A stretch of 64,000 bases of DNA from Alphaproteobacteria bacterium (GCA_015062235.1 SUUZ01000006.1:11258-75257), one strand, 5' to 3'; positions 5,575 through 45,244 are shown, counted from the first letter of the stretch. Notes: generated from the sequence alone by a model not told the origin. Made by a program: numbers and translations.

Positions 5575-6529
5575 AAGGATTAAACAAAACCCTACGACGG
5601 GAAGTTGTATCTTTTTTCTTAATTACCTTGATATTTGCTTTGCGATTTTTTATTTTTTGCCAATCCCATGGCATATAAAACTCTCCTTGCCATAATCCTC
5701 TTTTGTTGTTTAATGCTTGATTTTGATAAGGAATGTAGGTTTGTGTTTGACGAATATCGGCCACTGCCCATCCTGAGTTTATTAAAGCTGCTCCAATATC
5801 ATATGGTCCAAGCATGCAGACACCTGTTAATACGCCCCTACTATCTTCTGCTAATATATGGCATTTTATCTGATTATCCGCCAACCAACTATTTAACCAA
5901 GAAATTGATTGCTGTCCACAACGATACCCTCTTCCTGAGGAATCAGCGCATGTTTGCGATATATCTGGCGCGGCAACACCAAAAAATTTAATTATTTTAC
6001 CATTTATCGTTATGGTATCTCCACTAACAATCTTGGAAACACCTATTATTGATGGATATTGTAAGGGATTGAATTTGGATGGTTGTTTTTCTTCTTTTTT
6101 TGAAACAAAACCATCTACAATATTTTCTGATAGAATCGGGTGCTTATCCTCTCCAACTAAATTTACAGTGCCCTCCGTTAAATCCTTTTGATGACCACCT
6201 TCTGTATTTGCAACAACTTCTGATGATGTTTTTATCCCTTGCCCAAGAAATGTTTTTATGTTTTGTTCTATATTATTGATTCCCCCTGAAAAAGCTCCTA
6301 TAGCGTATAAAATAAACAACGTAACAGCAAAAATGATTATCAAAGAAGGAAGACACCCCATAGCTCTCCAAGCCATTTTAGCAAAAATATAAAGCACAAT
6401 AAGCCCTATTATTAAGCCTATAAAACCACCTCCCTGCAACAAAGTGCTATCACTTTGTGTTCCTGCACCTCCAATCAATATGAAAAATAAAGCAGTAATA
6501 CCGAAAATGACTTTTTTAATAAACCCCAT
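5564..6529 (-). CDS. membrane-anchored staphylococcal-nuclease (SNase)-like domain protein
   Basis: N-terminal TM helices. C-terminal region VSGDTITINGKIIKFFGVAAPD...GR.YRCG...GWAVAD resembles the thermonuclease fold pattern. Confidence 0.45.
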   Translation of the reverse strand: MGFIKKVIFGITALFFILIGGAGTQSDSTLLQGGGFIGLIIGLIVLYIFAKMAWRAMGCLPSLIIIFAVTLFILYAIGAFSGGINNIEQNIKTFLGQGIKTSSEVVANTEGGHQKDLTEGTVNLVGEDKHPILSENIVDGFVSKKEEKQPSKFNPLQYPSIIGVSKIVSGDTITINGKIIKFFGVAAPDISQTCADSSGRGYRCGQQSISWLNSWLADNQIKCHILAEDSRGVLTGVCMLGPYDIGAALINSGWAVADIRQTQTYIPYQNQALNNKRGLWQGEFYMPWDWQKIKNRKANIKVIKKKDTTSRRRVLFNPFGG

Positions 6530-21583: not shown

Positions 21584-21721
21584 TAAAGGATCCTCACTAT
21601 AGTATTAAGTTTTAATTACAGCTATACTATAGACTTATAAAAGAAAAAAGAAAAGTAAAAAATAATTTATTGTTTATCTAATATTTTAATGTTATTGTTA
21701 ATTATGATGTTGGAGGATGAT

Positions 21722-22345
21722 ATGTTTAGGTATAAAAATAATCAGGATGGAGCAACAATGTTGGAGACGTTGGGTGTATTAACGATTGTTATTATGCTTG
21801 GAATATCTTCTATAAAACTAATTGGCAATATCATGGCAATGTTTAAGCAGAGTATGGTGGTAAGTGAAATTCAAGATTTACAAAAAGCTATAACTGATAG
21901 ATATAAGTTTGAAGGAAGTTACAAGTCTTTATTTGAAGGAAGATCAGATGAAGATATTGTGCAATATCTTTGTGAGAATAAAATAGCTCCTTTTCAGATG
22001 TGTTCTGGAGATAGAATGTATCACAGAATGGGAGGTGCTGTATGGGTTGTACCTAGCGGATATTATGAAGACGATGTGTTTGTTGCTGATTATAATAAAT
22101 ATGCTATGACTTTTTATAAATTAACAGATAAAACATGTTTACTTGCAGCTCAAATAAATTGGAACAAGCAAAAAACATCTAGTATTTTTAAAATGATAAT
22201 AAATTCAGACAAAGTAAATAAATTAGTTGTTGATGTTCCATATAACATGCAAACAGGTTCTAAAACTTTTCCTGCGGATGTTTCAGATATTACTAAAGCT
22301 TGTAGTTATGATGATAATAATACAATTGAATGGGTGTTTTTTTAG
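21722..22345 (+). CDS. type IV pilin/pseudopilin-like protein
   Basis: Prepilin-like N-terminus QDG/ATMLETLGVLTIVIMLG with Glu at +5 after the predicted cleavage-site Gly. Start set at ATG 21722 with GGAGGA RBS. Confidence 0.4.
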   Translation: MFRYKNNQDGATMLETLGVLTIVIMLGISSIKLIGNIMAMFKQSMVVSEIQDLQKAITDRYKFEGSYKSLFEGRSDEDIVQYLCENKIAPFQMCSGDRMYHRMGGAVWVVPSGYYEDDVFVADYNKYAMTFYKLTDKTCLLAAQINWNKQKTSSIFKMIINSDKVNKLVVDVPYNMQTGSKTFPADVSDITKACSYDDNNTIEWVFF

Positions 22346-25091: not shown

Positions 25092-25270
25092 AATGCCCAA
25101 TTTGTAACAAAGAGTTTGATGATGCAAAATATAAACCTTTTTGTTGTAAAAGATGTGCAGATATAGATTTGGGTAATTGGTTTAGTGAAAAATATACAAT
25201 AGCCGCAGAAAACCTGAATGAAAAAGATTTAGAAGAACTGAATAAAGCATTATTATCTAGCGAAAAATAA
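25088..25270 (+). CDS. yacG: DNA gyrase inhibitor YacG (zinc finger)
   Basis: CPICNKEF...CCKRCADIDLGNWF zinc-ribbon. 60 aa. 4-bp overlap with rng. Confidence 0.8.
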   Translation: MKCPICNKEFDDAKYKPFCCKRCADIDLGNWFSEKYTIAAENLNEKDLEELNKALLSSEK

Positions 25271-25299
25271 CAAAGACCTCAAAACATGGTCTTTGTTAT
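25271..25299. terminator. bidirectional terminator hairpin between yacG and virD4-like gene
   Basis: CAAAGACC ... GGTCTTTG 8-bp stem followed by TTATTT. Confidence 0.5.
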
Positions 25300-27519
25300 T
25301 TAATCGTTTTGTTCTTCTTCGTTTTCAAATTCTTCAGCATACTGATCAAAATCTTCGTTAGGATCATAGTCTATACCAAGTTTTGCAAGCATATCATCGT
25401 TTATATCCTCACGTTGAGCAACAATCCAATCAGGAACATTTGGTGCAGGAGGTATTTTTGCTAAAGCTTTCATTTTTGGGTCAAGATACCAACGAGGAGA
25501 ATCGGCCATAATAGGTCTATCGATGAAACTTTGCATTAGAACCACTTGTTTTGACGTCGGTAAACTTAGTAGTTGAGTGGTTGATATAACATTAACTCCT
25601 TGTAGAGAGTAAGATACATTTTTTGCAAAAGGATTGGCTCCTTTTGCAAAGCCTTCATTTTTAGAGTATGACGTTGTTTGAACTGTTTTTTTACCTATCA
25701 TTTTTGAGAATCGATCCGCAGTTACCTCATTGTTTTGTGATAAGATAACTTTACATGCGGTGGTAGATATAACCGTTTCAAGATCGTCTTTACCATATTT
25801 ACCAGAAATTTGTCCTAAATCTTGACCGATAAGCAAGTAAGAAACTTTTTGACCTCGACCAACAGCTGGACCATCAATAACAGCTTTTAATTTTGGTAGT
25901 GTTGGGAACTCGTCTATAGCAAATAAACAAGGGAAAGGTCCCATTTTACCGTCTGTAGGATTAACAAAATTAGGAGGGTTAGCTATTAAATATGAAGACA
26001 TTAAGTCAAAAAAAGTACCAGAAATGACGCTTAAAGCTCGAGCATCAACCTGATTTACTGACAAATAAACAGATATAGGTTTAAATTCTCCAGTAATAGG
26101 ATCTTTTAATCCACGTAAATCCTTGAATTGAATATCTGAGAAGCTTGTTCTTGCAACTACAGCAGAGTTTTTAAATATACCTATGCCAGCGAAAGCTGTA
26201 GACATTACGGAACCACGTTCTTTGTCAGGCATAGAGCTTAATTGACTTAATTCAACAATACAGCGTGCAGAGTATCCAAATTTACGAGCCTCTTCAATAG
26301 CAGCCTCTAAAAGATCACGCATAGGGTCTGCCATAGCAGCCATTTGATCGCCCTCATCCATACGGCGTTTTATTTCTTGAGATTGTTTGATTTGAGCTTC
26401 GGTAATCCACTCAAGAATCATTGCAAGACACGATTCGTGACCAATCCATTTGTCTGGTAGTAATGCCCAAGTTCCAATAGGAAGGTAGTTATCAATGTTT
26501 AAAGTTCCTGCTCTTAAGTTTTGGAGAGCCCTAGGAGCCATAGGGTCGTTCATTTCAAGGTAATATCCTTCAAGAACTTTTTTATCCTCTTCGTCTATTT
26601 TTCCTTCGTATACACGGCCTATAAAATAATCGTTAGCACGGGCTTTTTCGCATTTTGAAACAATAAAATGGATAAAACCATTTAATGCGGCGCGACCTGT
26701 TTTAGACCAGTGAGGATCTGCACCACCTTTAGGGTCTTCTACAAGGGTGTTGCACATAGAATCAACATACATGTCTCGACCAGGACCAGGAGATGGCACA
26801 GCGCCAGGTGATAACGGATTCCAGCTTGGATAATATATGCCTTCTTCAGGATTATCCTCCATACCCCAGTTAATAATGAAAACAGGTCCTACTTTGGCTC
26901 GGGCTCCAGATGTTGAATAGCATAATTCTGGTTTAGGATCATTTACAACAATACTCATGCCTGGTGAATTAAAAATTGTTGGAATAACAACACCAACTGT
27001 TTTACCAGTACCTGGAGGAGCACAACAGAGAACAGATAGAGTTTCATTCATTCTTAAAAGACGACCTTTGAACTTTCCAACAACGATACAGAATCCATCA
27101 AAAAGTCCCATTTTTTTTATGTCTTTTTCTGTAGCAAGTCTAGCTGACCCATGAATATTTGATTGAAATCTATAAGGGTTGGTTAATATACCAAAAATTA
27201 TGCCAATTGGTAGGCTTATAAAAGGTAATATAGGAACCCAAAGACTAACTGAGAAGGGACCATTATAGTTGAACAATTGTTTTAACCACACCCAATAACG
27301 ATGATACAAGAATCCGCTTTTGTTGAAGGTTAAAGAGAAAAATTTTGCAACATCACTCATGCTTTCTTTTGATATACCGTTTCCGATAATATAAGCTAAA
27401 GGCATAGATATAAGAGCAAGAAAAAGCGTTATAACTACAGACAAAGTTACAGTAATTACCATCCAACGTACAGCGCTGTTATATTCTTTCCACTCTTCGC
27501 CTTCTTTTTCTAATGCCAT
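25300..27519 (-). CDS. virD4: type IV secretion coupling protein (VirD4/TraG family ATPase) with acidic C-terminal tail
   Basis: Two N-terminal TM helices. Walker A CCAPPGTGKTVGVVIPT. Walker B FAIDEFPTLPKL. Acidic C-terminus EDFDQYAEEFENEEEQND. 739 aa. Confidence 0.85.
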   Translation of the reverse strand: MALEKEGEEWKEYNSAVRWMVITVTLSVVITLFLALISMPLAYIIGNGISKESMSDVAKFFSLTFNKSGFLYHRYWVWLKQLFNYNGPFSVSLWVPILPFISLPIGIIFGILTNPYRFQSNIHGSARLATEKDIKKMGLFDGFCIVVGKFKGRLLRMNETLSVLCCAPPGTGKTVGVVIPTIFNSPGMSIVVNDPKPELCYSTSGARAKVGPVFIINWGMEDNPEEGIYYPSWNPLSPGAVPSPGPGRDMYVDSMCNTLVEDPKGGADPHWSKTGRAALNGFIHFIVSKCEKARANDYFIGRVYEGKIDEEDKKVLEGYYLEMNDPMAPRALQNLRAGTLNIDNYLPIGTWALLPDKWIGHESCLAMILEWITEAQIKQSQEIKRRMDEGDQMAAMADPMRDLLEAAIEEARKFGYSARCIVELSQLSSMPDKERGSVMSTAFAGIGIFKNSAVVARTSFSDIQFKDLRGLKDPITGEFKPISVYLSVNQVDARALSVISGTFFDLMSSYLIANPPNFVNPTDGKMGPFPCLFAIDEFPTLPKLKAVIDGPAVGRGQKVSYLLIGQDLGQISGKYGKDDLETVISTTACKVILSQNNEVTADRFSKMIGKKTVQTTSYSKNEGFAKGANPFAKNVSYSLQGVNVISTTQLLSLPTSKQVVLMQSFIDRPIMADSPRWYLDPKMKALAKIPPAPNVPDWIVAQREDINDDMLAKLGIDYDPNEDFDQYAEEFENEEEQND

Positions 27520-27530
27520 TTTTTCCTCTT

Positions 27531-28775
27531 TTATGCAATACTACGTAATAGTTTTTTTATTTTTTCGAATATAGCCTTATCCACATTACCATCAGCCTCT
27601 TCTAATGTTTTAGCAAATAAAGGTATTTCTTTTGGTGTTCCTCTGTCAATACGAGTTACTTTAACACCGATATCTTTCCAAATGTCTAACATATCTTCGG
27701 CGTTAATTATATTTCCAATTTGTTCAATAACGAAAGGAACAACATCAAAAGATAAATCTGCGTCTTTTAGGGTTTCTTCTAGTGTTAAACGAGCAAGGTC
27801 CACCTTGCGTACAGGAGAAATACGATGTGAGCTTTCTGAAAACCATAAAGGTTCTTCATCGTTGAAGCGCTCTTCATCAGCTAGCCAATCTCCAGGTTCT
27901 TTATCGTTTAAACACATACATATTTGTGTTTTTGACACACCAATGAAATCTATAAATGTGTTTTTGATTGTTGCGCCAGTTATAATATCGTATCCTTTTT
28001 GTTTTAGTAATTCAAAGGAAGAGTTTGCCCCACCTGATTTTTGCTTAATAGGTTGATTTGGTGTTGTTTTTTCAGGTGTTTTTTTCTTGGATTCGTTTTG
28101 ATTGTTTTCTTTTTTAGCAGATGATTCTTCGTTTTTTATAGAAGTATTTTTTTGAGCTGGAGGAGGTGTTTCAGCAAAAAGATCAAAATCAAGAGGTTCG
28201 GTATCACCCATCTCGAACAGAGAGTGAGTGAATTCCTTGGTTTCTGGTTTATTGGGTAGAGGTAAGGAAGAACGAGGTTTTGACTTCATGGTTACACCAG
28301 ATAAAGCGGCTTTGCGTTCCTCATCAAAAATAGATTTTGGTGTTGAATTATCTTCAATAGGACCTCTAACGCTTTTGGGGCGTATTTCTTTGTATGATTT
28401 TTTCTTTTTAACCACCTTAACAGAGGCAGTGTTTGTAATTTTTTTGACTTGTTTTTCAAAAACACTGTTGAATATTTTGATAGGTAGAAAACTAAGAAAA
28501 GCAAAAACAGATCCCCACTTGATAGTACTTAAAGCAGCCCAAACAGTAATCCATACAGGGATAGATGTTAAAACGATAAGAATAAAAGCCCACTCTTTTG
28601 GTTCGTCTATAACCCAACCAGAAAGCCATAAATTCCACGCATGTAACCAATGAGAAGAACGGAAGATATCAAAGTGCCAATTTGTAAGCATAATAACACG
28701 TATTCCCTCAATGAAGAATATGCTCCAAAAAAGGCCTACAAGTACTATTCTTAGCAATATCAGCAATGGTTTCAA
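27531..28775 (-). CDS. membrane protein with cytoplasmic C-terminal domain (paralogous N-terminus to 28841-29323 product)
   Basis: N-terminal polytopic domain shares motifs with the adjacent 160-aa protein (TNWHFDIFRSSHW vs TWNFNFLSIKSW; LPIKIFNSVFEK vs SPIKLFYKIFDGK). 414 aa. Confidence 0.4.
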   Translation of the reverse strand: MKPLLILLRIVLVGLFWSIFFIEGIRVIMLTNWHFDIFRSSHWLHAWNLWLSGWVIDEPKEWAFILIVLTSIPVWITVWAALSTIKWGSVFAFLSFLPIKIFNSVFEKQVKKITNTASVKVVKKKKSYKEIRPKSVRGPIEDNSTPKSIFDEERKAALSGVTMKSKPRSSLPLPNKPETKEFTHSLFEMGDTEPLDFDLFAETPPPAQKNTSIKNEESSAKKENNQNESKKKTPEKTTPNQPIKQKSGGANSSFELLKQKGYDIITGATIKNTFIDFIGVSKTQICMCLNDKEPGDWLADEERFNDEEPLWFSESSHRISPVRKVDLARLTLEETLKDADLSFDVVPFVIEQIGNIINAEDMLDIWKDIGVKVTRIDRGTPKEIPLFAKTLEEADGNVDKAIFEKIKKLLRSIA

Positions 28776-28840
28776 AAAAAATCTCCTGAAAATTTTCTTT
28801 TATTATACTAATATAAAATAGGTTAACAATAGTTTATTTT

Positions 28841-29323
28841 TTAGTTTTTTATCTCTTCGGAGATTTTTTTGGTGATTTCAGATCTGATATTTCCAGCCTC
28901 TTTAGATTTCTCAGGTTTTAAAGATTCTATTTCTGCCTTGATATCATCGATCATTTGTTGGCTTGATTTGATATTTTTTATAACGATACGCTCTGGTTCA
29001 GCATCTATTTTTCCGTCAAATATTTTATAAAATAATTTTATAGGACTTAGTAAAATGTTTATGTATTTTATTTTTAGTGCAAAATAAAAACCAATTAGCC
29101 ACCAAAGAGGAAGGGATAACAAAGATGTTATTAACAAAATATCTGATGATGTTTTTAGAATACCTCCATTATTCCAAAAGGTATAAAGAATTTTCCATGA
29201 CTTAATTGATAGAAAATTGAAGTTCCAAGTTAAAGATATAGCAATATTAGAAATAGAAATAAATACAAAAGTCCAGCTAACAAAGATTAGTATTAAACGA
29301 AATAGTCGTAATATTTTTTTCAT
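28841..29323 (-). CDS. small polytopic membrane protein (paralog of N-terminal domain of 27531-28775 product)
   Basis: See the paralogy motifs listed for 27531-28775. 160 aa. Abuts the upstream gene (1-bp spacing). Confidence 0.4.
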   Translation of the reverse strand: MKKILRLFRLILIFVSWTFVFISISNIAISLTWNFNFLSIKSWKILYTFWNNGGILKTSSDILLITSLLSLPLWWLIGFYFALKIKYINILLSPIKLFYKIFDGKIDAEPERIVIKNIKSSQQMIDDIKAEIESLKPEKSKEAGNIRSEITKKISEEIKN

Positions 29324-31333
29324 TTAGTTAGCCCTTTCGGTGTTTTTAGTTCTAATATCACCAACTTTGAATTGTTTTAATTCTTCTTTGTTGGGAGCGT
29401 TTAGTTGACTTCTTATTTGATTAATTCTACTTCTAACATTGTCTGTTGTTTGCTGTTGAGCTGTCAATTCGGCTTCTCTTTGGCTAAGGTTTGTTAGTTG
29501 TCTTGTATACATTTCTTCAAGAGTCATATCGTTGAAAGCATCGGCAAAAGCAACAGGACCGCGATTTTGTTTTGGGGAGTAGGTTGCTTCAATGGTGTTT
29601 TCTATGGTTTTCCCATCTTTAGATTTTTCCACAAGAGAAGCCACTTCGGCCACTAATGCTTCGCAAGATATTTTTTTTGGGTTGTTATTACCAGTATATA
29701 CACCAGCAAATATTTTAGCGGCTTCTTCGTAATTTTTTTCTGAAAACTCTTTAATAGACTTAGGATCATCAAGAATCGAAGGATTTTTGATAATCTCTTG
29801 AGACAACATAAATTGGTTGTAGTGAGCTGCAAATAAACCCTGTAGGGCAAAAGTTTTTTCGATTTCTGGGCGGTGTTCAATCTTATGAGTGCTTTTAGTT
29901 TGAGCGTATTTGAAAGCTTCAGCAAAACCCTTAACTTCTCCATCTGTTATAGTACGTTTTTTTCCATCGCGAACACTTTGATATATTGTGTTAACAGCGT
30001 TTTTGTATTGCTCCTCGATCTTTTTTCGTGTTTCAGTATTGTTTTGAGGGTTTAAGCGTGCGTTGATGGTTTCTATTTGTTCTGCGTCAAGATCTTTTTG
30101 TATTTTGGTTAGATTTTCTTTGTTGTAGGGATCTTTGTAGGGAATAGTTCTTGAACCACCATCTTTTTCATAAATAAGAATACCTGTATCTGCGAGAATA
30201 TTTCGGTGATTTGCTAGTTCTTTCTCTCTGTGGGATAGTGTTTTCCAATCCTCACCATCGAACGCACTTATATGATCGTTTATCTCTTTAATTCTTTTTT
30301 CATATTCACCACTAAGTAAGAGAAAACCATCTTTTCGTTTGTTTTCGACTTCTTTTTCTTCAGCTGTTTGTTCTTTATCTTTATTTTTAAATACACCATT
30401 CCAACCAGCTTTTGCGCCACGAACCGTAGCATCTTTAACACCACCAAGGAATTGCGATGCTTTTTCCCAAGCGGGTTTGGTTACGCCGTAGTGAACACCA
30501 TGAAGACTTTCATATAAAATCACACCCGCAGGAGCCGCAACAAATTTGTCAAGAGTCCAAGAAGCGCCTTTAAGGATTACTTCTTTCATAAGATAATCAA
30601 TAATATCACCCTGTTCAATTTTTATTTCTTCATCTTCTTTACGCCCCCAATTAGGATCATCCATAAAGTTGAATTCACCTGCATTTTTGGTTTTATCATC
30701 TTTTTCAGAAGATTTGGATTTACTATTTTTTTCTAATTCTTTAGTAAGTCGGTCTCGCTCGAAGTCTCCAACGGAAGCAAGATAATTCTTTTGTTCTTCT
30801 TCATTTAGAGAAAAGAAATCACTATCTGTTTTTAAAGTAATGTTTCCAAGGTTTAATAATTCTTGAGGAATTTCTTTAGCGGTATCTTCATTGTTTTCGC
30901 TATCAGTATATGCACTTTGAATAGCTGGCTTTACAAGGGTTTCAAAAGCTTGTTCCCCATGACTATGAGCCATACTTCCAGCATAGGCTTTTAGGATGTT
31001 TTCTGGACTTAATTCATTTTTGTATTGTTCGTCACTAAAATTGCCACTACTGTCTGGTTTTATTCCTCGTAGTTCAGCAATATGTGCTGCTGCAGCGTAG
31101 TAGTCTTTTACCAAATTGTCAGCTGGTTTAAAGGTCGCATCTTTAGTTGCTCTATACATTGCTGATGCGGCGGCTATTGCTTTACTATCTCTGGCTGTTT
31201 TGTCTGATGCTGAGCGAAAGTCAGAGGAATTTTGCATGACCTGATCTTTGTTTTGCTGCAGAATATTATGAACACTATTTCTTACAGAGTTTGAAATAGA
31301 TGTTTTTGGGGTTGGGTTTTTAGGATCGGCCAT
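29324..31333 (-). CDS. large hydrophilic hypothetical protein (669 aa)
   Basis: Long ORF in an operon with the virD4-like gene. Charged/Lys-Glu rich. No recognisable catalytic motif. Confidence 0.4.
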   Translation of the reverse strand: MADPKNPTPKTSISNSVRNSVHNILQQNKDQVMQNSSDFRSASDKTARDSKAIAAASAMYRATKDATFKPADNLVKDYYAAAAHIAELRGIKPDSSGNFSDEQYKNELSPENILKAYAGSMAHSHGEQAFETLVKPAIQSAYTDSENNEDTAKEIPQELLNLGNITLKTDSDFFSLNEEEQKNYLASVGDFERDRLTKELEKNSKSKSSEKDDKTKNAGEFNFMDDPNWGRKEDEEIKIEQGDIIDYLMKEVILKGASWTLDKFVAAPAGVILYESLHGVHYGVTKPAWEKASQFLGGVKDATVRGAKAGWNGVFKNKDKEQTAEEKEVENKRKDGFLLLSGEYEKRIKEINDHISAFDGEDWKTLSHREKELANHRNILADTGILIYEKDGGSRTIPYKDPYNKENLTKIQKDLDAEQIETINARLNPQNNTETRKKIEEQYKNAVNTIYQSVRDGKKRTITDGEVKGFAEAFKYAQTKSTHKIEHRPEIEKTFALQGLFAAHYNQFMLSQEIIKNPSILDDPKSIKEFSEKNYEEAAKIFAGVYTGNNNPKKISCEALVAEVASLVEKSKDGKTIENTIEATYSPKQNRGPVAFADAFNDMTLEEMYTRQLTNLSQREAELTAQQQTTDNVRSRINQIRSQLNAPNKEELKQFKVGDIRTKNTERAN

Positions 31334-31412
31334 GGTTTTTATCCTTATTAATGAGGTTTATTAGTTTATTATAACAACACTTTTGTTTTTTGTCTATATT
31401 TTTGTACTAAAA

Positions 31413-32297
31413 CTAAGCTTTTAAATTTTTCAAAAATTTACCGAGTCGTTTGTTTATTTTTATTCCGTCCTCAGGTTTTGCTTTTATCATACCAAAAAAG
31501 CGAGATGGTATTTTGTCTATTTGAATAGGGGCAAAAGTTGCAGGATTATTTTCAAGCATTTTTTTTGCTCCCTCAGGATCTTTGCGGACGGTTTTGAAAA
31601 AATTGTTTACTAACATCTCAGCATCAACAGGAAAATTACGCTCTTTGATTGCTGCAATATAATTACGCATTTGATCTCGGCGATGTTGTTGTTCTTCATA
31701 GAGTTTTTTTTCTATTTTGTGTTTTTCATATTTGACGCGACGCAAATTGTATGCTATTTCACAAGCGTCTAACTCAATTAAAGATTCAACGTAAGATATT
31801 AAAGCCATTTGAAGATTTTTATCTGTTGTTTTTTCAGCAAAATTTAAAATTTGTTCGTCAGATGCGTTGGGTGGCAATGAGGATAAACGAACTGGTTGTG
31901 CGGCAATAAGAATTTCCCATGCATTAATTATATCTCTGTTTATAATATTCATTTGTGAGGGGCGGAAGCGGGGAAGCAGGTGTTGAGCTTGTAAGATAAA
32001 ATCACTGTATTCTATTCCTGCTTCATCACCACAAGCTTTAGCGGATTTTGTTAGTTCACAAATAGCCCCATATAAACGTTTTTCTTCTAAGGGAAGTTTT
32101 TCTGCATCAATATCAACAACATCAGCAATAATATTCGATAGAGAAGCAGCTTCATTTTCTGTTGTTGGGTTTGTGTTACTTTCTGTTGTTGGTTTACTTG
32201 TTTCTGTAAAAAATCTTTCAGTATCTTCTAGTTGAGAAGCTATGAAATCATCTAACAATTTATCAAAATCATCTGAAGAAAAATCATTATCAGCCAT
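31413..32297 (-). CDS. acidic hypothetical protein (294 aa)
   Basis: ORF in the same operon. Acidic N-terminus MADNDFSSDDFDKLLDDF. Confidence 0.4.
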   Translation of the reverse strand: MADNDFSSDDFDKLLDDFIASQLEDTERFFTETSKPTTESNTNPTTENEAASLSNIIADVVDIDAEKLPLEEKRLYGAICELTKSAKACGDEAGIEYSDFILQAQHLLPRFRPSQMNIINRDIINAWEILIAAQPVRLSSLPPNASDEQILNFAEKTTDKNLQMALISYVESLIELDACEIAYNLRRVKYEKHKIEKKLYEEQQHRRDQMRNYIAAIKERNFPVDAEMLVNNFFKTVRKDPEGAKKMLENNPATFAPIQIDKIPSRFFGMIKAKPEDGIKINKRLGKFLKNLKA

Positions 32298-32308
32298 GAA
32301 AATAACTC

Positions 32309-32590
32309 CTAATTTATTTTTATTGTTGCAACAGGTTGCTTATTATCGGAAATATTAGTAATTAATATTCTGTCAGAATCACCGCCCCCTTTAACAAGTA
32401 TAAAAATAGAGTCTTGTTCTATTTTGTAGTCAGCAATGAAACTTCCTTTGGGTTGGTTTAACTTGATGTTTGGAATGGGGGTTGTATTGTTTATTTTTTT
32501 ATAGATAGTGCCAAGAGCTGTTAGAGCACCAAAAAAGAGTAAGAATGTTAAAAAAAATACGATAATTTTAACAAATTTTAGCCTATTCAT
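32309..32590 (-). CDS. small exported/membrane-anchored protein (93 aa)
   Basis: N-terminal hydrophobic segment IIVFFLTFLLFFGALTALG. First gene of the minus-strand operon. Confidence 0.35.
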   Translation of the reverse strand: MNRLKFVKIIVFFLTFLLFFGALTALGTIYKKINNTTPIPNIKLNQPKGSFIADYKIEQDSIFILVKGGGDSDRILITNISDNKQPVATIKIN

Positions 32591-32665
32591 GAAAGCCTCT
32601 CTTGAAAGTTTCTTTTTTTATTTTTATTATATTCGCAATTGTTGTTTTAGGTAAAAAACAAATAG

Positions 32666-33774: not shown

Positions 33775-34650
33775 ATGCAGAAGAATTCAACACTGAAAGG
33801 TATAGATTTTTCGCCAGAAATTAATATGGCAAGATATTTACAAAAAATAAGGTCGTATCCTATTCTTTCTCAAGAAGATGAATATAATTTAGCTGTTAAA
33901 TATCAACAAACAAAAAATCAAGAAATTGCAAAAATTTTAATAACCTCGCATTTGCGTTTGGTGGTTAAAGTTGTATCTAAATATAAAGGATACGGGCTGT
34001 CTACAGCAGAGATGATATCAGAGGGAAATATTGGTTTATTGTATGCTGTTGAAAAATTTGAGCCAGAAAAAGGTTTTAGATTCTCTACTTATGCATTGTG
34101 GTGGATTAGAGCAACAGTACAAAAATATATACTTAATTCGTGGTCTTTGGTTAAAATTGGTACAACAGCAGCTCAAAAAAAATTGTTTTTTAATTTAAGA
34201 AAGATAAAAAATAGGCTAAATCTCGGTGATGATAGAGAGCTTTCGTTAGATGTTTTAAACAAAATAGCTGGAACATTGGATGTTAGTGTGCAAGATGTTA
34301 CAGATATGAATATGAGATTGAAAGCTCACGATGGATCTCTTAACACAATAGTAGATGTTTCGGGAGATGGCGGGGCAGAATGGATGGATTTTATTGCTGA
34401 TTCTAAACCAAATCAAGAAGAAACAACTGCATATAGAGAAATAATGATTTATAGAAAGCATTTGTTCAACAAAGCGTTAGTGGTGTTAAATAAGAGAGAA
34501 AAAGATATTTTGTTTAAGAGGCGCTTAATGGATAAGGCTGTTACTCTTGATGATCTTAGTAGGGTATATGGTATCTCAAAAGAAAGAGTTAGGCAAATTG
34601 AACTAAACTCTATAAAGAAAATTAGTAGGGCAATAGAAACTGTTTCTTAG
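33775..34650 (+). CDS. rpoH: RNA polymerase sigma-32 factor RpoH
   Basis: Sigma-70 regions 2 and 4. RpoH box QKKLFFNLRK. 291 aa. Confidence 0.9.
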   Translation: MQKNSTLKGIDFSPEINMARYLQKIRSYPILSQEDEYNLAVKYQQTKNQEIAKILITSHLRLVVKVVSKYKGYGLSTAEMISEGNIGLLYAVEKFEPEKGFRFSTYALWWIRATVQKYILNSWSLVKIGTTAAQKKLFFNLRKIKNRLNLGDDRELSLDVLNKIAGTLDVSVQDVTDMNMRLKAHDGSLNTIVDVSGDGGAEWMDFIADSKPNQEETTAYREIMIYRKHLFNKALVVLNKREKDILFKRRLMDKAVTLDDLSRVYGISKERVRQIELNSIKKISRAIETVS

Positions 34651-35129
34651 CGATCTTCAGGCATAATATTTGCCCAGTTTTCTTTTAATTTTTCAAGTTT
34701 TGAGTTTATTATTTTTAGGCGATGCTGAGCAGAATTTTTGAAGATATAAGCAAATATATCTGGTAAGATATGATACAAAACCATGCCCAAAGCAGCTGCT
34801 GCTAACATAATAATTATGTTATAAATGTTATCAGTTATAGAAAAAACATTTGGAGATTGAAATTGATTAAAAATGCTATTCAAACATATCATAACACCAG
34901 AAATATTAAAACATCCAATAGTTGTTATTTTATTGATGTTTTTAGTGTCTGTGACAACGATTGTTAGAGTTGGTAAGAGGCCTAAAAACAAGACAACAAC
35001 TGCGGGCAAGACAGTAAAAGAAATAATTAAAAAAGCTATAAATATTAACACTTTTTGGAAAAGGTTAAGATGAATCTTACTTTTTTTTGGGTTTTTTTTA
35101 GAAGTTAAATTGTTTATAGGTTTTGTCAT
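34647..35129 (-). CDS. small polytopic membrane protein, translationally coupled to upstream kinase-like gene
   Basis: 4-bp ATGA overlap with the 35126-37126 gene. 3-4 predicted TM helices. Confidence 0.4.
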   Translation of the reverse strand: MTKPINNLTSKKNPKKSKIHLNLFQKVLIFIAFLIISFTVLPAVVVLFLGLLPTLTIVVTDTKNINKITTIGCFNISGVMICLNSIFNQFQSPNVFSITDNIYNIIIMLAAAALGMVLYHILPDIFAYIFKNSAQHRLKIINSKLEKLKENWANIMPEDR

Positions 35130-37126
35130 TTCATTATCCAGTATATTAAGCTAAAAACGAAAGCACTTAGCATTGTTAAAACGGCTAAAATAGAAGTAAA
35201 ACGTTTAGCAAGGTCGCGAGCTTCTTCCTCAATTTTTGAATCGCCTGACAATATTTTGTTTTTTTCTGTGAGTAAGATATTAGTGAGCTTTAACGCTTCA
35301 GAAAATTCAGATTTATCTCTGACCCTAGCTTCTTCATTTTCTAGTATTTCAACAATTTCTATTATTTTTCCATTTTTTGAGATTTGTAAAAGCTCTTGTT
35401 CGAGATATTTTTGATATTTTATATTGTGATAGCTTTGAATCAATGGTTTTGCCATGTTTACGAGCCATTGGGTTAGGCTTGGTAATTGTGCAGGACCATG
35501 TTTATTCTGGATGTTAGCGTATAGACGAATTATAGCTCCAAGCTTTAAAGAGTCTTGATTGGCGTTAATATCAAGAATAATGCCATCAATCTTCTTACCC
35601 ATTTTGCAACGTAAATAAGCGATTATATTTTTATCAAAAGGAAGGGTTTGGTAGTCACCCTTAAAACTATCTAAAGCTTTTAGTAGTCTAGATAGTGAGT
35701 TAACGAACCACCCTTTAAGTAGAGGGCTTATACAAGGTAAATCCTCATCAAAATCATACATAATACGATCAAAACCATAGCCATAATCATTACGGGAAAT
35801 ATAAAGCTTGAATTCTCCTGCGTTGGTAGGAGCTCGTAATGAAGGCTGTTCTTGATACCAAAGTTTAATTATGTCTGTAGCTATTAAGGTTTGTAGAGGG
35901 TTTAGAGAAGTAGCATTTTTTTTATTATAAAAGATAGTTTTGGCTATTCCATTTGGGAAAAGATATCCCTCAGAAGTTTTTAAAGGAAGTGTGTGATCCA
36001 AATATATACAAATACGAGTTAGTAACAAGCTCTTATCAGGTTGGTCTTTTTCTGCTGATATTTGTTTTTCTATTTTGGCATATAGCTTCTCATCTTCTAA
36101 TCCTGTTTTTACCCATTCTAAAAGTTTGCCACTTTGGATTACTTCTATTCCAAAATCAGGATTAGAAAGCATTGTTAAGGCAGCACTCTTTCGTGTGTAG
36201 CATTTTTCACCATTTACGATGAGGGCTCTATTTGAGCGGTCAAAGCTGTCGCTAGAAGTAAATGATGTTGTCTTACCCTCGTAATAATTAATCAAATGAG
36301 TATAATCACAACGATTTTCTGAATTATCATCAAGGAGAGAGCGTAGAATCATGCTTATTTGATTATGAATTTTTTCATTGTTAGACAAGAAAGTAAAAGA
36401 AGAATTTTTTAATTTCTGGCGAATTTGTTCTCCAGAAGATAAGTCTGAGTGTATATTTTTTCCTAAAGATAAACCCAAAAGAGCAACACCTGATGAATAA
36501 AGGTCATGCTCAAAAAAACCATTTCCTCTAGATTGTGGTTCGCATAGAGCGTTTTCAATAGTTTCATATGGTAATGGTTGGAAAAAGCTAGGAAAAGAGG
36601 CTAAACAATCTCCAAGAACAAGCTCTGATCGAGAAGAGTCTTTGAAAAAAAGATTGTCTAAGCGAATGGCTCGGTGTGTCAATCCAAAAGTTTTTAATAC
36701 ATCACAAGCAGATAAAAGAGAAAGCGCTAAAGATTTGAATATTTCTGGAGTTAGCTTTTGAGTCATTTCATCAAAAGTGTTTGCTTTAGGTCCTGTTGGT
36801 TTGTTGTAAATTAGAGCCATACTTTCAATGTTGTTATCATCATTCACTATTCCATATTCTACAAGCTTTAGAATGTTTGGAGCGTCTATGGATTTCATGT
36901 ATGGCAAATAAGACAAACGAGGAGAAAGCTCTTTTCCGCATATCAAAGCAAAAAGGTTTCTGTTTGGGTTAACATTATCTTTAACCTCAAAAGCTTTAGC
37001 TCCATTAGAATCTAGTTCTGGCAAGGGGGTATCAAAGCATATTTCAAAGCGTTCTTTTAACAAGAAGCTACTAGCGGTATTATCAGTTGTTGTTTCTAAG
37101 ATTTCTTCTGTTGTTTGCTTTTCCAT
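35126..37126 (-). CDS. protein-kinase-like (probable pseudokinase) protein with C-terminal membrane anchor
   Basis: Catalytic-loop-like HRAIRLDNLFF (HRD→HRA) and DFG-like VLGDCLASF. C-terminal TM LAVLTMLSAFVFSLIYWIM. 666 aa. Confidence 0.45.
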   Translation of the reverse strand: MEKQTTEEILETTTDNTASSFLLKERFEICFDTPLPELDSNGAKAFEVKDNVNPNRNLFALICGKELSPRLSYLPYMKSIDAPNILKLVEYGIVNDDNNIESMALIYNKPTGPKANTFDEMTQKLTPEIFKSLALSLLSACDVLKTFGLTHRAIRLDNLFFKDSSRSELVLGDCLASFPSFFQPLPYETIENALCEPQSRGNGFFEHDLYSSGVALLGLSLGKNIHSDLSSGEQIRQKLKNSSFTFLSNNEKIHNQISMILRSLLDDNSENRCDYTHLINYYEGKTTSFTSSDSFDRSNRALIVNGEKCYTRKSAALTMLSNPDFGIEVIQSGKLLEWVKTGLEDEKLYAKIEKQISAEKDQPDKSLLLTRICIYLDHTLPLKTSEGYLFPNGIAKTIFYNKKNATSLNPLQTLIATDIIKLWYQEQPSLRAPTNAGEFKLYISRNDYGYGFDRIMYDFDEDLPCISPLLKGWFVNSLSRLLKALDSFKGDYQTLPFDKNIIAYLRCKMGKKIDGIILDINANQDSLKLGAIIRLYANIQNKHGPAQLPSLTQWLVNMAKPLIQSYHNIKYQKYLEQELLQISKNGKIIEIVEILENEEARVRDKSEFSEALKLTNILLTEKNKILSGDSKIEEEARDLAKRFTSILAVLTMLSAFVFSLIYWIMK

Positions 37127-44292: not shown

Positions 44293-45244
44293 ATAATGGA
44301 AATAATCCATAATATTTTAAATTATCTATCAAATCACTAAAAAGTTCATCATTATTTTCAAAATGAAAACCAATACTACTATTAGAATCATAACAAATGA
44401 TTTTACTATTCTGCCTATCAAATGTTATATGTATATTAACAATATCTTCTTTACCTTGTTTAATTACAGCCTCTTGAAGTTTATCCTTGCAAGATGAAAT
44501 GGCATATGCAAGATTATACAATATTTTATCAATAGCAATTGCATATAACATTCTTTTAGTTTCTTGGAATATTTGTGGAGTGCAACTTTTATTATTAACA
44601 ACAATAGGATATATAATCTTGGATTTTCTCATACTTATAATGTCTTGTTTTGCAATTTCTTCTGATAAAGGTATGCCTTTTAAAGAGCAGCCATCTAGTA
44701 GTCCTTGCCAATTTCTATCTAATATATCTAATAAGTCTTTATCTGCAAAATTACTATGATTTCTTACATCTAAAAAAAATACATTATTTCCCCACACATA
44801 TGTAAACAGTAAAAAATTATCATTATATTTTGTTCTTTTATCAAGAGGATGAATATGCAAATGAATTATTCCCCAATCATTTAACATATAGTCATTATAA
44901 GTTAAATGATTAGAATGTGTGCTTAAATATGGTAAAATAGATGAACCTTTTTCAAAGCATTTTTGTATATTATCTATTTTTTTCTTAAATGCTTTATATA
45001 GTTTGGATTTTAATATTTCTTTGGAGTAATATACAGCCTTTTTTCCACAAGGAAGCCTTTGCATATTGTAAATATAACATTTTAACAAGTCTTTATAATC
45101 AGCATCTTTGAGATATTCTTTAGAATGTTTTGTGATTTCTATATTTTGTGTTTTTATAAAATCATTAAATAGTTCAATTAGAAAATCTCTGCAATCTTGC
45201 TTAAAATTATTAAAAATGCTTGTTATATTTACATCATCACTCAT
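44291..45244 (-). CDS. hypothetical protein translationally coupled (ATGA overlap) to Type ISP RM gene
   Basis: 317-aa ORF whose start codon overlaps the stop of the 1613-aa RM gene. No recognisable motifs. Confidence 0.4.
   Translation of the reverse strand: MSDDVNITSIFNNFKQDCRDFLIELFNDFIKTQNIEITKHSKEYLKDADYKDLLKCYIYNMQRLPCGKKAVYYSKEILKSKLYKAFKKKIDNIQKCFEKGSSILPYLSTHSNHLTYNDYMLNDWGIIHLHIHPLDKRTKYNDNFLLFTYVWGNNVFFLDVRNHSNFADKDLLDILDRNWQGLLDGCSLKGIPLSEEIAKQDIISMRKSKIIYPIVVNNKSCTPQIFQETKRMLYAIAIDKILYNLAYAISSCKDKLQEAVIKQGKEDIVNIHITFDRQNSKIICYDSNSSIGFHFENNDELFSDLIDNLKYYGLFPL

What the first reader, a model, noticed from the sequence alone, without database searches (positions are those of the whole stretch)
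25300..32590. Orphan VirD4/TraG-type coupling ATPase with five unknown operon partners, wedged between conserved yacG and rluD-rpoH
A 739-aa coupling protein has intact Walker A and B motifs and a strongly acidic C-terminal tail. It is the last gene of a six-gene minus-strand operon inserted between divergently oriented housekeeping genes. None of the partners looks like a VirB/Trb component or a relaxase. Two of them (414 aa and 160 aa) share a paralogous polytopic N-terminal domain. The long acidic tail plus a dedicated inner-membrane partner is reminiscent of a DotL/DotM-type coupling subcomplex. That would be unusual in this genomic context.
Basis: partly seen in the sequence, partly recalled or inferred. 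Interest (0 to 1): 0.7.

Follow-up and report, generated by a model that had tools for sequence, protein, structure and literature searches.

The report
Domesticated orphan VirD4 coupling-protein operon
A DNA-pumping ATPase normally found in bacterial conjugation machines has become a strictly conserved core chromosomal gene in a whole clade of gut Alphaproteobacteria, next to a membrane-anchored nuclease-like partner and with no secretion channel genes nearby, which suggests an undescribed use of this motor.

Summary
Six co-directional minus-strand genes lie at 25300-32590. The last encodes a 739-aa VirD4/TraG-type coupling protein (T4CP) with invariant Walker A/B motifs and an acidic tail.

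The block is not an insertion. The same six genes sit beside rluD-rpoH in all 80 related species genomes examined, all gut Alphaproteobacteria MAGs. All six are under purifying selection (T4CP dN/dS 0.01-0.02; 74-98% identity, comparable to RpoH).

The 414-aa and 160-aa proteins share a two-helix membrane domain (hhalign 99.1%). The 414-aa protein is not DotM-like. Its C-terminal domain has a PD-(D/E)xK (NERD-like) nuclease fold with conserved D276/D291/E293.

The T4CP belongs to a monophyletic clade of chromosomal T4CPs with no VirB genes nearby in any of 12 independent contexts. Its sister group is T4CPs of VirB operons on alphaproteobacterial megaplasmids. In the other subclade, the gene directly upstream is a pentapeptide-repeat protein.

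Best reading: a domesticated T4CP-centred inner-membrane DNA-handling complex. Its route out of the cell (a type IV secretion system (T4SS) encoded elsewhere, pilus-linked, or none) could not be tested. I found no description of it in the literature I could search.

The parts
25265..25301 (.). Perfect 14-nt inverted repeat (AAATAACAAAGACC / GGTCTTTGTTATTT, 9-nt loop). It spans the convergent stop codons of yacG and the T4CP gene and is probably a bidirectional terminator.
   Evidence: the function is inferred from position only
25300..27519 (-). T4CP, 739 aa, a VirD4/TraG-type coupling ATPase. It has two N-terminal TM helices (about residues 21-39 and 95-113) and a roughly 55-aa periplasmic loop. 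It is the last gene of the operon.
   Evidence: Pfam T4SS-DNA_transf 1.2e-56, TraG-D_C and TrwB_AAD_bind. NCBIfam VirD4/TraG hits are all far below equivalog cut-offs. Hydropathy. 74-98% identity across 80 species. dN/dS 0.01-0.02.
26998..27021 (-). Walker A motif APPGTGKT (residues 167-174)
   Evidence: invariant in 81/81 sequences; coordinates verified
25903..25923 (-). Walker B region FAIDEFP (residues 533-539); D536, E537, F538 and P539 are invariant
25303..25422 (-). Acidic, aromatic-containing C-terminal tail of the T4CP (residues 700-739). The sequence varies but the composition is conserved.
   Evidence: 17 D/E against 2 K/R in the last 45 residues; clade mean 15.6 D/E in the last 40
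27531..28775 (-). p414, a membrane-tethered nuclease-fold partner with a TTG start, 11 bp upstream of the T4CP gene. In order it has a two-TM hairpin, a basic KKKKSYKEIRP motif, an acidic HSLF-x-DFDLF motif, a low-complexity linker and a C-terminal domain.
   Evidence: alignment A1; AF2 model; 1007 homologues, all unnamed and without Pfam domains; dN/dS 0.04-0.12
27534..28028 (-). C-terminal domain of p414 (residues 250-414), with a PD-(D/E)xK / NERD-like fold. D276, D291 and E293 are invariant. An invariant acidic loop spans residues 291-324.
28428..28775 (-). N-terminal membrane domain of p414 (residues 1-116): two TM helices with a Trp-rich periplasmic loop. It is paralogous to the N-terminal domain of p160.
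28841..29323 (-). p160, a two-TM protein with the same membrane domain as p414 and a short basic cytoplasmic tail
   Evidence: alignment A5; hhalign 99.1% against p414; no Pfam, NCBIfam or PDB match
29324..31333 (-). p669, a hydrophilic protein that evolves fast and varies in length (450-755 aa across the clade). It has no TM helix or signal peptide. Its stop codon abuts the p160 start.
   Evidence: median 17% identity in a global alignment with the window protein, yet always present; dN/dS 0.07-0.35; no Pfam or NCBIfam match
31413..32297 (-). p294, a cytoplasmic all-alpha helical-bundle protein. It has a conserved acidic N-terminal helix (DDFDKLLDDFI) and a basic C-terminus.
32309..32590 (-). 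p93, a DUF6476-family bitopic protein with an N-terminal TM helix and a roughly 65-aa periplasmic domain. It is the first gene of the operon and runs divergently from rluD.
   Evidence: the window copy scores 20 bits against a 24-bit cut-off; 45 of 53 orthologues match DUF6476, best E 3.2e-10
32626..32655 (-). Promoter-like site (TTTACC-18-TATAAT) in the 75-bp rluD/p93 intergenic region
   Evidence: consensus match only; the region has no more such sites than shuffled sequence

Best explanation
**Shown**
- The six genes form an ancestral, vertically inherited core operon of a clade of gut Alphaproteobacteria.
- The T4CP is an intact ATPase of VirD4/TraG type.
- It belongs to a monophyletic group of chromosomal T4CPs with no VirB genes nearby. 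The sister group is the T4CPs of virB operons on alphaproteobacterial megaplasmids. This points to a conjugative coupling motor that was domesticated long ago.
- In every lineage examined, a dedicated gene sits directly upstream of the T4CP, or overlaps its start. In this lineage that gene is p414, a two-TM protein. Its cytoplasmic C-terminal domain has a PD-(D/E)xK (NERD-like) nuclease fold and a conserved acidic triad.

**Inferred mechanism**
- The products assemble into an inner-membrane complex. The T4CP hexamer is flanked by the paralogous membrane anchors p414 and p160.
- The tethered nuclease-fold domain of p414 binds DNA and probably nicks or cuts it beside the motor. PD-(D/E)xK (MOBC) relaxases do this in some conjugative systems.
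- The T4CP then uses ATP to pump the DNA or nucleoprotein at the membrane.
- p294 (a helical bundle with acidic and basic termini) and the fast-evolving p669 act as cytoplasmic adaptor, accessory or cargo proteins.
- p93 provides the only sizeable periplasmic domain.

**Unresolved**
- The route beyond the inner membrane is unknown. It could be a VirB-type channel encoded elsewhere, a type IV pilus-like apparatus, or none.
For: **Gene structure and conservation**
- ORFs and tight spacing.
- Conserved six-gene synteny next to rluD-rpoH in 80 species genomes.
- dN/dS below 1 for all six genes, and 0.01-0.02 for the T4CP.
- Walker A/B invariant and 313 of 739 positions invariant.

**Family and origin of the T4CP**
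- Pfam T4CP domains.
- The nearest annotated relatives, at about 35% identity, all lie in virB2-virB11/virD4 operons.
- The NJ tree supports monophyly of the orphans in 169 of 200 bootstraps and the joint clade with the VirB-megaplasmid T4CPs in 200 of 200.
- There are no VirB genes in 1.57 Mb of flanks or in the 10 sister-lineage contexts.

**The partners**
- p414 C-domain fold.
- D276/D291/E293 are conserved in the 55%-identity sister lineage, whose upstream gene is a true p414 homologue (hmmsearch 1.2e-55).
- p414/p160 paralogy.
- Positive-inside topology places the nuclease-fold domain in the cytoplasm with the T4CP motor. This is read directly from the sequence.
- In the other subclade the upstream partner is a pentapeptide-repeat protein in 6 of 6 contexts. 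From general knowledge, that fold mimics B-form DNA (MfpA, Qnr). Both partner types therefore point to DNA.

**Precedent**
- PD-(D/E)xK relaxases working with T4CPs are an established family, MOBC (PMC12857230, read).
Against: **No direct evidence for DNA handling**
- No activity was tested.
- The canonical (D/E)xK lysine is absent, so the nuclease domain could be inactive.
- Foldseek support for the fold is statistically weak.
- The most conserved segment of p414 is a very acidic loop (residues 291-324). That looks more like a protein-binding or metal-binding surface than a DNA-binding one.

**Signs that favour protein substrates**
- From general knowledge, all known T4CPs work with a T4SS channel, and many deliver proteins rather than DNA.
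- The pentapeptide partners carry basic C-terminal tails like VirB/D4 protein-translocation signals.
- A pentapeptide-repeat protein binds the Rickettsia T4CP as a candidate effector (PMC11077975).

**Limits of the sampling**
- No oriT, relaxase or DNA-binding accessory protein was identified.
- Only about 1-3% of each genome was visible, so a T4SS elsewhere cannot be excluded.
Confidence: 0.42

Rival explanations
1. The operon encodes a substrate-receptor complex for protein effectors. The T4CP, with p414 and p160 as membrane partners and p294 as adaptor, recruits protein cargo such as the fast-evolving p669. It feeds that cargo to a VirB-type T4SS channel encoded elsewhere in the genome, with genes scattered as in the Rickettsiales rvh system. 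On this view the nuclease-fold domain is a degenerate protein-binding module. This is the functional core of the first reader's DotL/DotM analogy.
For: - The T4CP tail is acidic. p294 and the sister-clade pentapeptide partners have basic C-termini that resemble VirB/D4 translocation signals.
- p669 is hydrophilic, variable in length and the least constrained gene (dN/dS up to 0.35), as effectors often are.
- A pentapeptide-repeat protein co-precipitates with the Rickettsia T4CP (PMC11077975).
- The T4CP's TM region and periplasmic loop are conserved (62-79% per 20-aa bin), as expected if they dock to a channel.
- The canonical catalytic Lys is missing in p414.
Against: - No VirB gene lies within 10 kb (where the contig extends that far) in 80 clade genomes or in the 10 sister-lineage contexts.
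- The partners do not resemble DotM, DotN, IcmS/W or any known adaptor.
- The D276/D291/E293 triad is strictly conserved, even in a lineage whose T4CP is only 55% identical. This argues that the site is still used.
- T4CP identity of 74-98% across an order is unusually high for an effector system.
Confidence: 0.3
2. The operon is an anti-plasmid or anti-phage defence system, or an entry-exclusion system. A membrane ATPase and a membrane-anchored nuclease would intercept foreign DNA as it enters the cell.
For: - A type ISP restriction enzyme lies elsewhere in the window.
Against: - None of the six proteins hits PADLOC.
- The locus is fixed, syntenic and vertically inherited in every genome examined, whereas defence islands are patchy and mobile.
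- The T4CP dN/dS of 0.01-0.02 is that of a housekeeping gene.
- The nuclease domain is predicted to be cytoplasmic.
Confidence: 0.07
3. The block is a decaying remnant of an integrated conjugative or mobilisable element that no longer has a function.
For: - T4CPs normally belong to mobile elements, and the nearest annotated relatives are on plasmids.
- One metagenome copy of the same organism has the T4CP split into 182 + 552 aa (L093).
Against: - All six ORFs are intact in 80 species, and all are under purifying selection.
- The catalytic motifs are invariant.
- There is no integrase, att repeat or tRNA at the borders.
- No viral contig carries it.
Confidence: 0.02

Closest known systems
VirD4/TraG-type type IV coupling proteins of VirB/D4 (MPF_T) conjugation systems. 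The closest examples are the virD4 genes in the virB operons of the Erythrobacter aureus, Sphingosinicella and Microvirga megaplasmids.
   Same: - The same Pfam domains (T4SS-DNA_transf, TraG-D_C, TrwB_AAD_bind).
- Two N-terminal TM helices, Walker A/B motifs and an acidic C-terminal tail.
- About 35% identity, and the sister clade in the tree.
   Different: - It is chromosomal, a core gene and vertically inherited, with no adjacent virB2-virB11 genes or relaxase.
- It scores far below every NCBIfam equivalog cut-off (for example 133 against 728 bits for VirD4).
- It is much more conserved than conjugative T4CPs.
- Its operon partners are different and unannotated.
Legionella DotL-DotM(-DotN-IcmSW-LvgA) type IVB coupling complex
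   Same: The resemblance is architectural only. A coupling ATPase with an acidic tail is encoded directly downstream of a dedicated inner-membrane partner that has N-terminal TM helices and a cytoplasmic C-terminal domain. Further small partners lie in the same operon.
   Different: - There is no sequence or fold relationship.
- The T4CP is of VirD4 type, not DotL type.
- No homologues of DotN, IcmS, IcmW or LvgA were found.
- No Dot/Icm channel genes are nearby.
MOBC relaxases (CloDF13 MobC, pAD1 TraX), together with the plasmid-encoded T4CP of CloDF13
   Same: A PD-(D/E)xK-superfamily enzyme is paired with a coupling ATPase and has no channel genes of its own (PMC12857230; the CloDF13 MobB/MobC pairing is from my own knowledge).
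   Different: - p414 matched no Pfam or NCBIfam family at all, so no relaxase family.
- It is anchored in the membrane by two TM helices, so it cannot pilot DNA into a recipient cell.
- No oriT was identified.
- The locus is not on a mobile element.
NERD (nuclease-related domain, PF08378) and other PD-(D/E)xK nucleases
   Same: The alpha-beta-beta-beta-alpha-beta core, with conserved acidic residues on strands 2 and 3. There are weak NERD hits in 10 of 67 family members.
   Different: - All NERD hits are weak (best E-value 0.002), and only 10 of 67 members match at all.
- The motif lysine is replaced (D276 ... D291-K292-E293). From my own knowledge this resembles the BamHI-type D/E/E variant.
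- A 34-residue invariant acidic loop is inserted after strand 3.
Rickettsiales rvh T4SS, with its coupling protein RvhD4 and candidate effectors
   Same: An alphaproteobacterial, chromosomal, vertically inherited T4CP whose components are scattered around the genome. A pentapeptide-repeat protein interacts with the T4CP (PMC11077975).
   Different: From my own knowledge, rvhD4 lies in a virB8-B9-B10-B11-D4 cluster. Here no VirB gene is linked in any lineage. Whether these genomes have any T4SS is unknown.

Membership tests
VirD4/TraG-type T4CP (Pfam PF02534 / PF12696) | T4SS-DNA_transf and TraG-D_C domains score above the Pfam gathering cut-off | tested here: met
   193 bits against 20.1, and 78.6 bits against 22
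VirD4/TraG-type T4CP (Pfam PF02534 / PF12696) | Intact Walker A and Walker B NTPase motifs | tested here: met
   APPGTGKT and DEFP are invariant in 81/81 sequences
VirD4/TraG-type T4CP (Pfam PF02534 / PF12696) | N-terminal membrane anchor of two TM helices with a periplasmic loop | tested here: met
   Kyte-Doolittle peaks at residues 21-39 and 95-113. This is a hydropathy prediction only.
VirD4/TraG-type T4CP (Pfam PF02534 / PF12696) | Orthology to a characterised VirD4, TraG or TraD (NCBIfam equivalog cut-offs) | tested here: not met
   Best scores are 137 against 250 (CD1115), 133 against 728 (VirD4) and 123 against 674 (IncP TraG)
VirD4/TraG-type T4CP (Pfam PF02534 / PF12696) | Genetic linkage to a T4SS channel (VirB4 etc.) or a relaxase | tested here: not met
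   tblastn finds no VirB2-B11 hit in the window or in the 80 loci (1.57 Mb), and none appears in the 10 sister-lineage contexts. Genome-wide presence could not be tested with these tools.
DotL/DotM type IVB coupling complex | DotL/IcmO-type coupling ATPase | tested here: not met
   No DotL/IcmO family appears among the NCBIfam hits. The only PDB sequence hit is H. pylori Cag5, a VirD4 homologue.
DotL/DotM type IVB coupling complex | DotM/IcmP homologue as the membrane partner | tested here: not met
DotL/DotM type IVB coupling complex | Adaptor subunits DotN, IcmS, IcmW or LvgA | tested here: not met
PD-(D/E)xK / NERD nuclease superfamily (p414 C-domain) | Core alpha-beta-beta-beta-alpha-beta fold | tested here: met
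PD-(D/E)xK / NERD nuclease superfamily (p414 C-domain) | Sequence match to a curated family (NERD, PF08378) | tested here: inconclusive
   10 of 67 members hit, best E 0.002. The window protein does not hit.
PD-(D/E)xK / NERD nuclease superfamily (p414 C-domain) | Catalytic D ... (D/E)xK motif | tested here: inconclusive
   D276, D291 and E293 are invariant and are kept in the L083 homologue. The Lys position is Glu.
PD-(D/E)xK / NERD nuclease superfamily (p414 C-domain) | Nuclease or DNA-binding activity | not testable with these tools
   Needs biochemistry
MOBC relaxases | Sequence membership in the family, a soluble pilot protein, and a cognate oriT | tested here: not met
   p414 matched no Pfam or NCBIfam family at all, so no relaxase family. 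It has two TM helices. oriT was not searched for. Only the superfamily fold is shared.
DUF6476 (p93) | Match to PF20082 | tested here: met
   45 of 53 orthologues match, best E 3.2e-10. The window copy itself scores 20 bits against a 24-bit cut-off.
Integrated mobile element (ICE / IME / prophage) | Patchy distribution, integrase, flanking att repeats or tRNA, deviating composition | tested here: not met
   The locus is present and syntenic in 80 of 80 genomes. No tRNA lies nearby. Only chance AT-rich repeats were found. The GC rise is modest (0.34-0.40 against 0.29-0.33). No viral contig carries it.
Known anti-phage defence systems (PADLOC) | Match of any component to a PADLOC model | tested here: not met
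   0 hits for all six proteins at E <= 0.1

The most novel reading that the evidence does not exclude
This clade of chromosomal coupling proteins may work without any VirB-type secretion channel. On that reading it is an autonomous, housekeeping inner-membrane DNA (or nucleoprotein) translocase built from a domesticated conjugative motor plus a tethered nuclease-fold partner, or a pentapeptide DNA-mimic partner in the other subclade. It might hand over to a type IV pilus-like apparatus. Pilin-like genes or a prepilin peptidase lie within 3 kb of the T4CP in 4 of 12 independent lineages. This would be the first T4SS-independent role for a T4CP.
Probability: 0.25. Interest if true: 0.85.

Novelty: new variant of a known kind. 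Interest (0 to 1): 0.66.

Why it matters
Coupling proteins are known only as the substrate receptors and motors of type IV secretion and conjugation systems. They are usually carried on mobile elements and evolve fast.

Here a T4CP is a core chromosomal gene conserved to about the same degree as RpoH across a whole clade of abundant but uncultured gut and rumen Alphaproteobacteria. It is part of a wider monophyletic family of chromosomal T4CPs with no VirB genes nearby, each with a dedicated upstream partner.

This has two consequences:
- It identifies a domestication event of a conjugation motor.
- It gives a natural system in which to test an old question: can a T4CP act on its own as an inner-membrane DNA pump (the 'shoot and pump' idea), and what does it then do for the cell?

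It also assigns a fold to a 1000-member family of unnamed proteins (p414). And it defines four further conserved families of unknown function that are tied to the motor.

Tried and rejected
**Partner searches that found nothing useful**
- Pfam and NCBIfam on all six proteins. Only the T4CP and a weak DUF6476 hit matched.
- PADLOC gave nothing.
- Profile searches of p414, p294, p160 and p93 against PDB sequences gave nothing meaningful.
- Per-member Pfam scans of p294 gave only scattered single hits.

**Readings rejected**
- DotM-like partner: rejected on fold.
- Mobile-element insertion: rejected.
- Rosetta-stone fusions: the long T4CP relatives turned out to carry inteins or acidic tails, not fused partners.
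- Duplication of the p294-p669 pair in L023 as evidence of a functional pair: the two copies are 99.96% identical at DNA level and include a truncated p160. This is probably an assembly artefact or a very recent event, so it is uninformative.

**Literature**
- Searches for RF32 secretion systems, orphan T4CPs, and pentapeptide plus VirD4 found no description of this system.

**Tool failures**
- The afdb50 fold library was unavailable.
- The only metagenome-contig scan was lost to a tool error.

**Not achievable**
- A genome-wide search for VirB genes in these MAGs.

Full report
**1. The observation**

| Gene | Coordinates | Length |
|---|---|---|
| T4CP | 25300-27519 | 739 aa |
| p414 | 27531-28775 | 414 aa |
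| p160 | 28841-29323 | 160 aa |
| p669 | 29324-31333 | 669 aa |
| p294 | 31413-32297 | 294 aa |
| p93 | 32309-32590 | 93 aa |

- The gaps between the genes are 11, 65, 0, 79 and 11 bp.
- On the + strand, dksA, maf, rng and yacG converge on the T4CP end. rluD and rpoH diverge from the p93 end.
- A perfect 14-nt inverted repeat (25265-25301) spans the two convergent stop codons. It looks like a bidirectional terminator.
- The promoter-like sites found are no more frequent than in shuffled sequence.

**2. The coupling protein**

- The 739-aa product matches Pfam T4SS-DNA_transf (1.2e-56), TraG-D_C and TrwB_AAD_bind.
- Every NCBIfam VirD4/TraG/TraD model scores far below its equivalog cut-off. The only PDB sequence hit is a weak one to H. 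pylori Cag5. It is therefore a divergent VirD4/TraG-type T4CP and not a DotL.
- Hydropathy predicts two N-terminal TM helices around a roughly 55-aa loop.
- In an alignment of 81 orthologues, Walker A (APPGTGKT) and Walker B (DEFP) are invariant, and 313 of 739 positions are invariant. The C-terminal 40 residues carry a mean of 15.6 acidic residues, although their sequence varies.

**3. Not an insertion: a core locus of a clade**

- The T4CP has homologues at 73-98% identity in at least 166 species-representative genomes. All are gut or rumen MAGs labelled Alphaproteobacteria (for example Proteobacteria bacterium CAG:495 and Candidatus Scatocola), apart from a few mislabelled bins.
- NCBI places Ca. 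Scatocola in Rhodospirillales incertae sedis. From my own knowledge, GTDB calls this group order RF32.
- In the 80 loci fetched, all six genes appear in the same order next to rluD-rpoH wherever the contig extends that far. The yacG side is conserved only in the nearer relatives.
- Median identity to the window protein is 80% for the T4CP, 57% for p414, 43% for p294, 43% for p93, 35% for p160 and 17% for p669. For comparison, RluD is 55-91% and RpoH 58-90% identical.
- Nei-Gojobori dN/dS in six close pairs is 0.01-0.02 for the T4CP and 0.04-0.12 for p414. It is 0.02-0.10 for p294, 0.09-0.17 for p93 and 0.07-0.35 for p669. For p160 it is mostly 0.06-0.13. All six are real, constrained genes.
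- There is no nearby tRNA, no flanking att-like repeat and no copy in viral contigs. G+C rises only modestly.
- The rest of the window is ordinary core chromosome (parAB, radA, rho, mlaEF, tsaE and others), plus a type ISP restriction enzyme.

**4. The partners**

*p414*
- It has 1007 database homologues, none named and none with a Pfam domain.
- Alignment shows, in order:
  - a two-TM hairpin with a Trp-rich loop;
  - a KKKKSYKEIRP motif;
  - an acidic-aromatic HSLFxFDDxDDFDFD motif;
  - a variable low-complexity linker;
  - a roughly 165-aa C-terminal domain containing the almost invariant stretch DKEPGDWLADEERFNDEEPLWFSESSHRISPVRK.
- The AlphaFold2 model has pLDDT of about 90 in the C-domain core. 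Its topology is alpha-beta-beta-beta-alpha-beta.
- Foldseek finds the same families, but only at E >= 0.02. Ten of 67 family members give weak Pfam NERD hits.
- D276 on strand 2 and D291/E293 at the end of strand 3 are invariant. They are retained in a homologue from a sister lineage, where the neighbouring invariant Cys288 is not.
- The canonical Lys is absent. From my own knowledge, a D/E/E arrangement occurs in BamHI. Catalytic competence is therefore plausible but unproven.
- The positive-inside rule places the domain in the cytoplasm, beside the T4CP motor.

*p160*
- It shares the p414 membrane domain (BLASTP E = 4e-6; hhalign 99.1%, E = 4.6e-19).
- It ends in a short basic tail.

*p294*
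- It is predicted with confidence (pLDDT 87.6) to be an all-alpha bundle with a 60-residue helix. It has an acidic N-terminal helix (DDFDKLLDDFI) and a basic C-terminus.
- Fold search gives only generic helical bundles.

*p669*
- It is hydrophilic, has no TM helix, ranges from 450 to 755 aa across species and has almost no conserved residues.

*p93*
- It belongs to DUF6476 (45 of 53 orthologues match).
- It is the only product with a sizeable periplasmic domain.

None of the partners matches a PADLOC defence model.

**5. Wider family and origin**

- The closest annotated T4CPs, at about 35% identity, are on megaplasmids of Erythrobacter, Sphingosinicella and Microvirga. Each is the last gene of a complete virB2-virB11/virD4 operon. 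Ordinary TraG/VirD4 proteins are 24-29% identical.
- An exhaustive search of 1.84 billion cluster representatives found full-length relatives at 35-55% identity.
- Their genomic contexts are all chromosomal. The neighbours are housekeeping genes such as ruvB, obg, plsX, hfq-hflX, addAB and tRNA synthetases. G+C ranges from 33% to 61%. None contains a VirB gene.
- tblastn with the Erythrobacter VirB2-B11 proteins also finds nothing in the window or in the 80 loci, 1.57 Mb in total.
- A bootstrapped NJ tree (704 columns, 200 replicates) gives these supports:

| Grouping | Bootstrap support |
|---|---|
| All chromosomal orphan T4CPs as one clade | 169/200 |
| The window's clade | 200/200 |
| A second orphan subclade | 200/200 |
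| Orphans plus the VirB-megaplasmid T4CPs | 200/200 |

- The simplest reading is a single ancient capture of a conjugative coupling protein, followed by vertical descent. This rests on a distance tree with limited sampling.

**6. A dedicated upstream partner is the constant feature**

- In the lineage with 55% T4CP identity (L083 and L084), the gene overlapping the T4CP start is a true p414 homologue (hmmsearch 1.2e-55, both domains). p160, p294, p669 and p93 were not detected there.
- In the second subclade, the gene immediately upstream is a pentapeptide-repeat protein in 6 of 6 contexts (L086, L087, L091, L092, L100, L102). Each has a strongly basic C-terminal tail, and the gene ends within a few bases of, or overlaps, the T4CP start.
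- From general knowledge, pentapeptide-repeat proteins such as MfpA and Qnr mimic B-form DNA.
- A pentapeptide-containing protein has been reported to bind the Rickettsia T4CP as a candidate effector (PMC11077975).
- PD-(D/E)xK enzymes acting as relaxases with T4CPs are an established family, MOBC (PMC12857230).

**7. Interpretation**

- I favour, at about 0.42, an inner-membrane DNA-handling complex. In it the T4CP hexamer works with the tethered nuclease-fold domain of p414, with p160 as a paralogous co-anchor. The arrangement is functionally analogous to a relaxase plus T4CP pair, but fixed at the membrane and used for a conserved cellular function.
- The main rival, at about 0.30, is a receptor complex for protein cargo such as p669 that feeds a T4SS encoded elsewhere.
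- Homology to DotL/DotM itself is excluded.
- Defence (about 0.07) and decaying-remnant (about 0.02) readings fit the conservation data poorly.
- The decisive unknown is whether these genomes contain a VirB-type channel at all. I could not test this because the genome and metagenome scans were exhausted.

**8. Novelty**

- Full-text searches found no description of chromosomal orphan T4CPs of this kind, nor of T4SS features of these gut Alphaproteobacteria. The library is incomplete, so absence of a hit is weak evidence.
- I rate the finding as a new variant of a known kind: a T4CP-based system with new partners and a housekeeping-like evolutionary pattern.
- It would become categorically new if it proved to be independent of a T4SS.

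Noticed in passing
window 21689-22345 (+); L083 13456-13803, 13865-14230, 14252-14776; L085 9503-9958; L090 2690-3394; L092 483-1220: Proteins with an unusual prepilin-like N-terminus (Q-x-G-x-[ST]-M-x-E followed by a hydrophobic helix), or a Peptidase_A24 prepilin peptidase, lie within 0-3 kb of the orphan T4CP in 4 of 12 independent lineages, and 9 kb away in a fifth. In the window's clade the 218-aa pilin-like gene sits next to fliX. The pattern suggests a possible functional link between these T4CPs and a type IV filament system.
   Followed up: partly
L086 8772-10001; L087 8691-10004; L091 4227-5429; L092 9006-9998; L100 8428-9993; L102 8958-9995: In the second orphan-T4CP subclade, the gene directly upstream of the T4CP is always a pentapeptide-repeat protein. 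It has a strongly basic C-terminal tail, and the gene ends within a few bases of, or overlaps, the T4CP start.
   Followed up: partly
proteins P0367, P0395, P0408, P0412, P0416 (relatives of the T4CP): Several longer T4CP relatives carry an intein (a Hint domain, in two also a LAGLIDADG homing endonuclease) in an N-terminal extension ahead of the conserved C-terminal T4CP domains. Others (P0363, P0370, P0374) have C-terminal extensions of 250-300 aa that are acidic and rich in Phe/Asp.
   Followed up: partly
window 45241-50082 (-): A 1613-aa type ISP restriction-modification enzyme with Mrr-like nuclease, helicase, coupler, methylase and specificity domains. A 317-aa ORF of unknown function lies downstream.
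   Followed up: no
window 34647-37126 (-): A 666-aa protein with a weak protein-kinase-like region and a C-terminal TM helix, followed by a 160-aa two-TM protein. Both are conserved just beyond rpoH in most genomes of the clade. Their function is unknown.
   Followed up: no
L093 11257-13474: In one JGI metagenome assembly of the same organism (p414 is 100% identical), the T4CP gene is called as two ORFs of 182 and 552 aa. This is a frameshift, either a sequencing error or a natural variant.
   Followed up: no
L023 2772-8224: An apparent tandem duplication of p294-p669 plus a truncated p160. The two copies are 99.96% identical over 2576 bp, so this is probably an assembly artefact or a very recent event.
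   Followed up: yes
L015 versus L019, whole operon: Synonymous divergence is mosaic. dS is about 0.02 for p669 and p160 but 0.86-1.5 for p414 and the T4CP. This suggests recent recombination within the operon between related strains.
   Followed up: no
window 5110-6529 (-); L092 20565-21910: A TsaE gene lies next to a staphylococcal-nuclease-like gene in both the window and a distant sister lineage. This suggests that the orphan-T4CP lineages share alphaproteobacterial core synteny.
   Followed up: no
L088 1479-9381: In the lineage with 51% T4CP identity, the T4CP gene is divergent from rsmE and a pseudouridine synthase gene, and lies 3 kb from an RpoH-like sigma factor. This echoes the rluD-rpoH neighbourhood of the window, so that neighbourhood may be older than the six-gene operon.
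   Followed up: no
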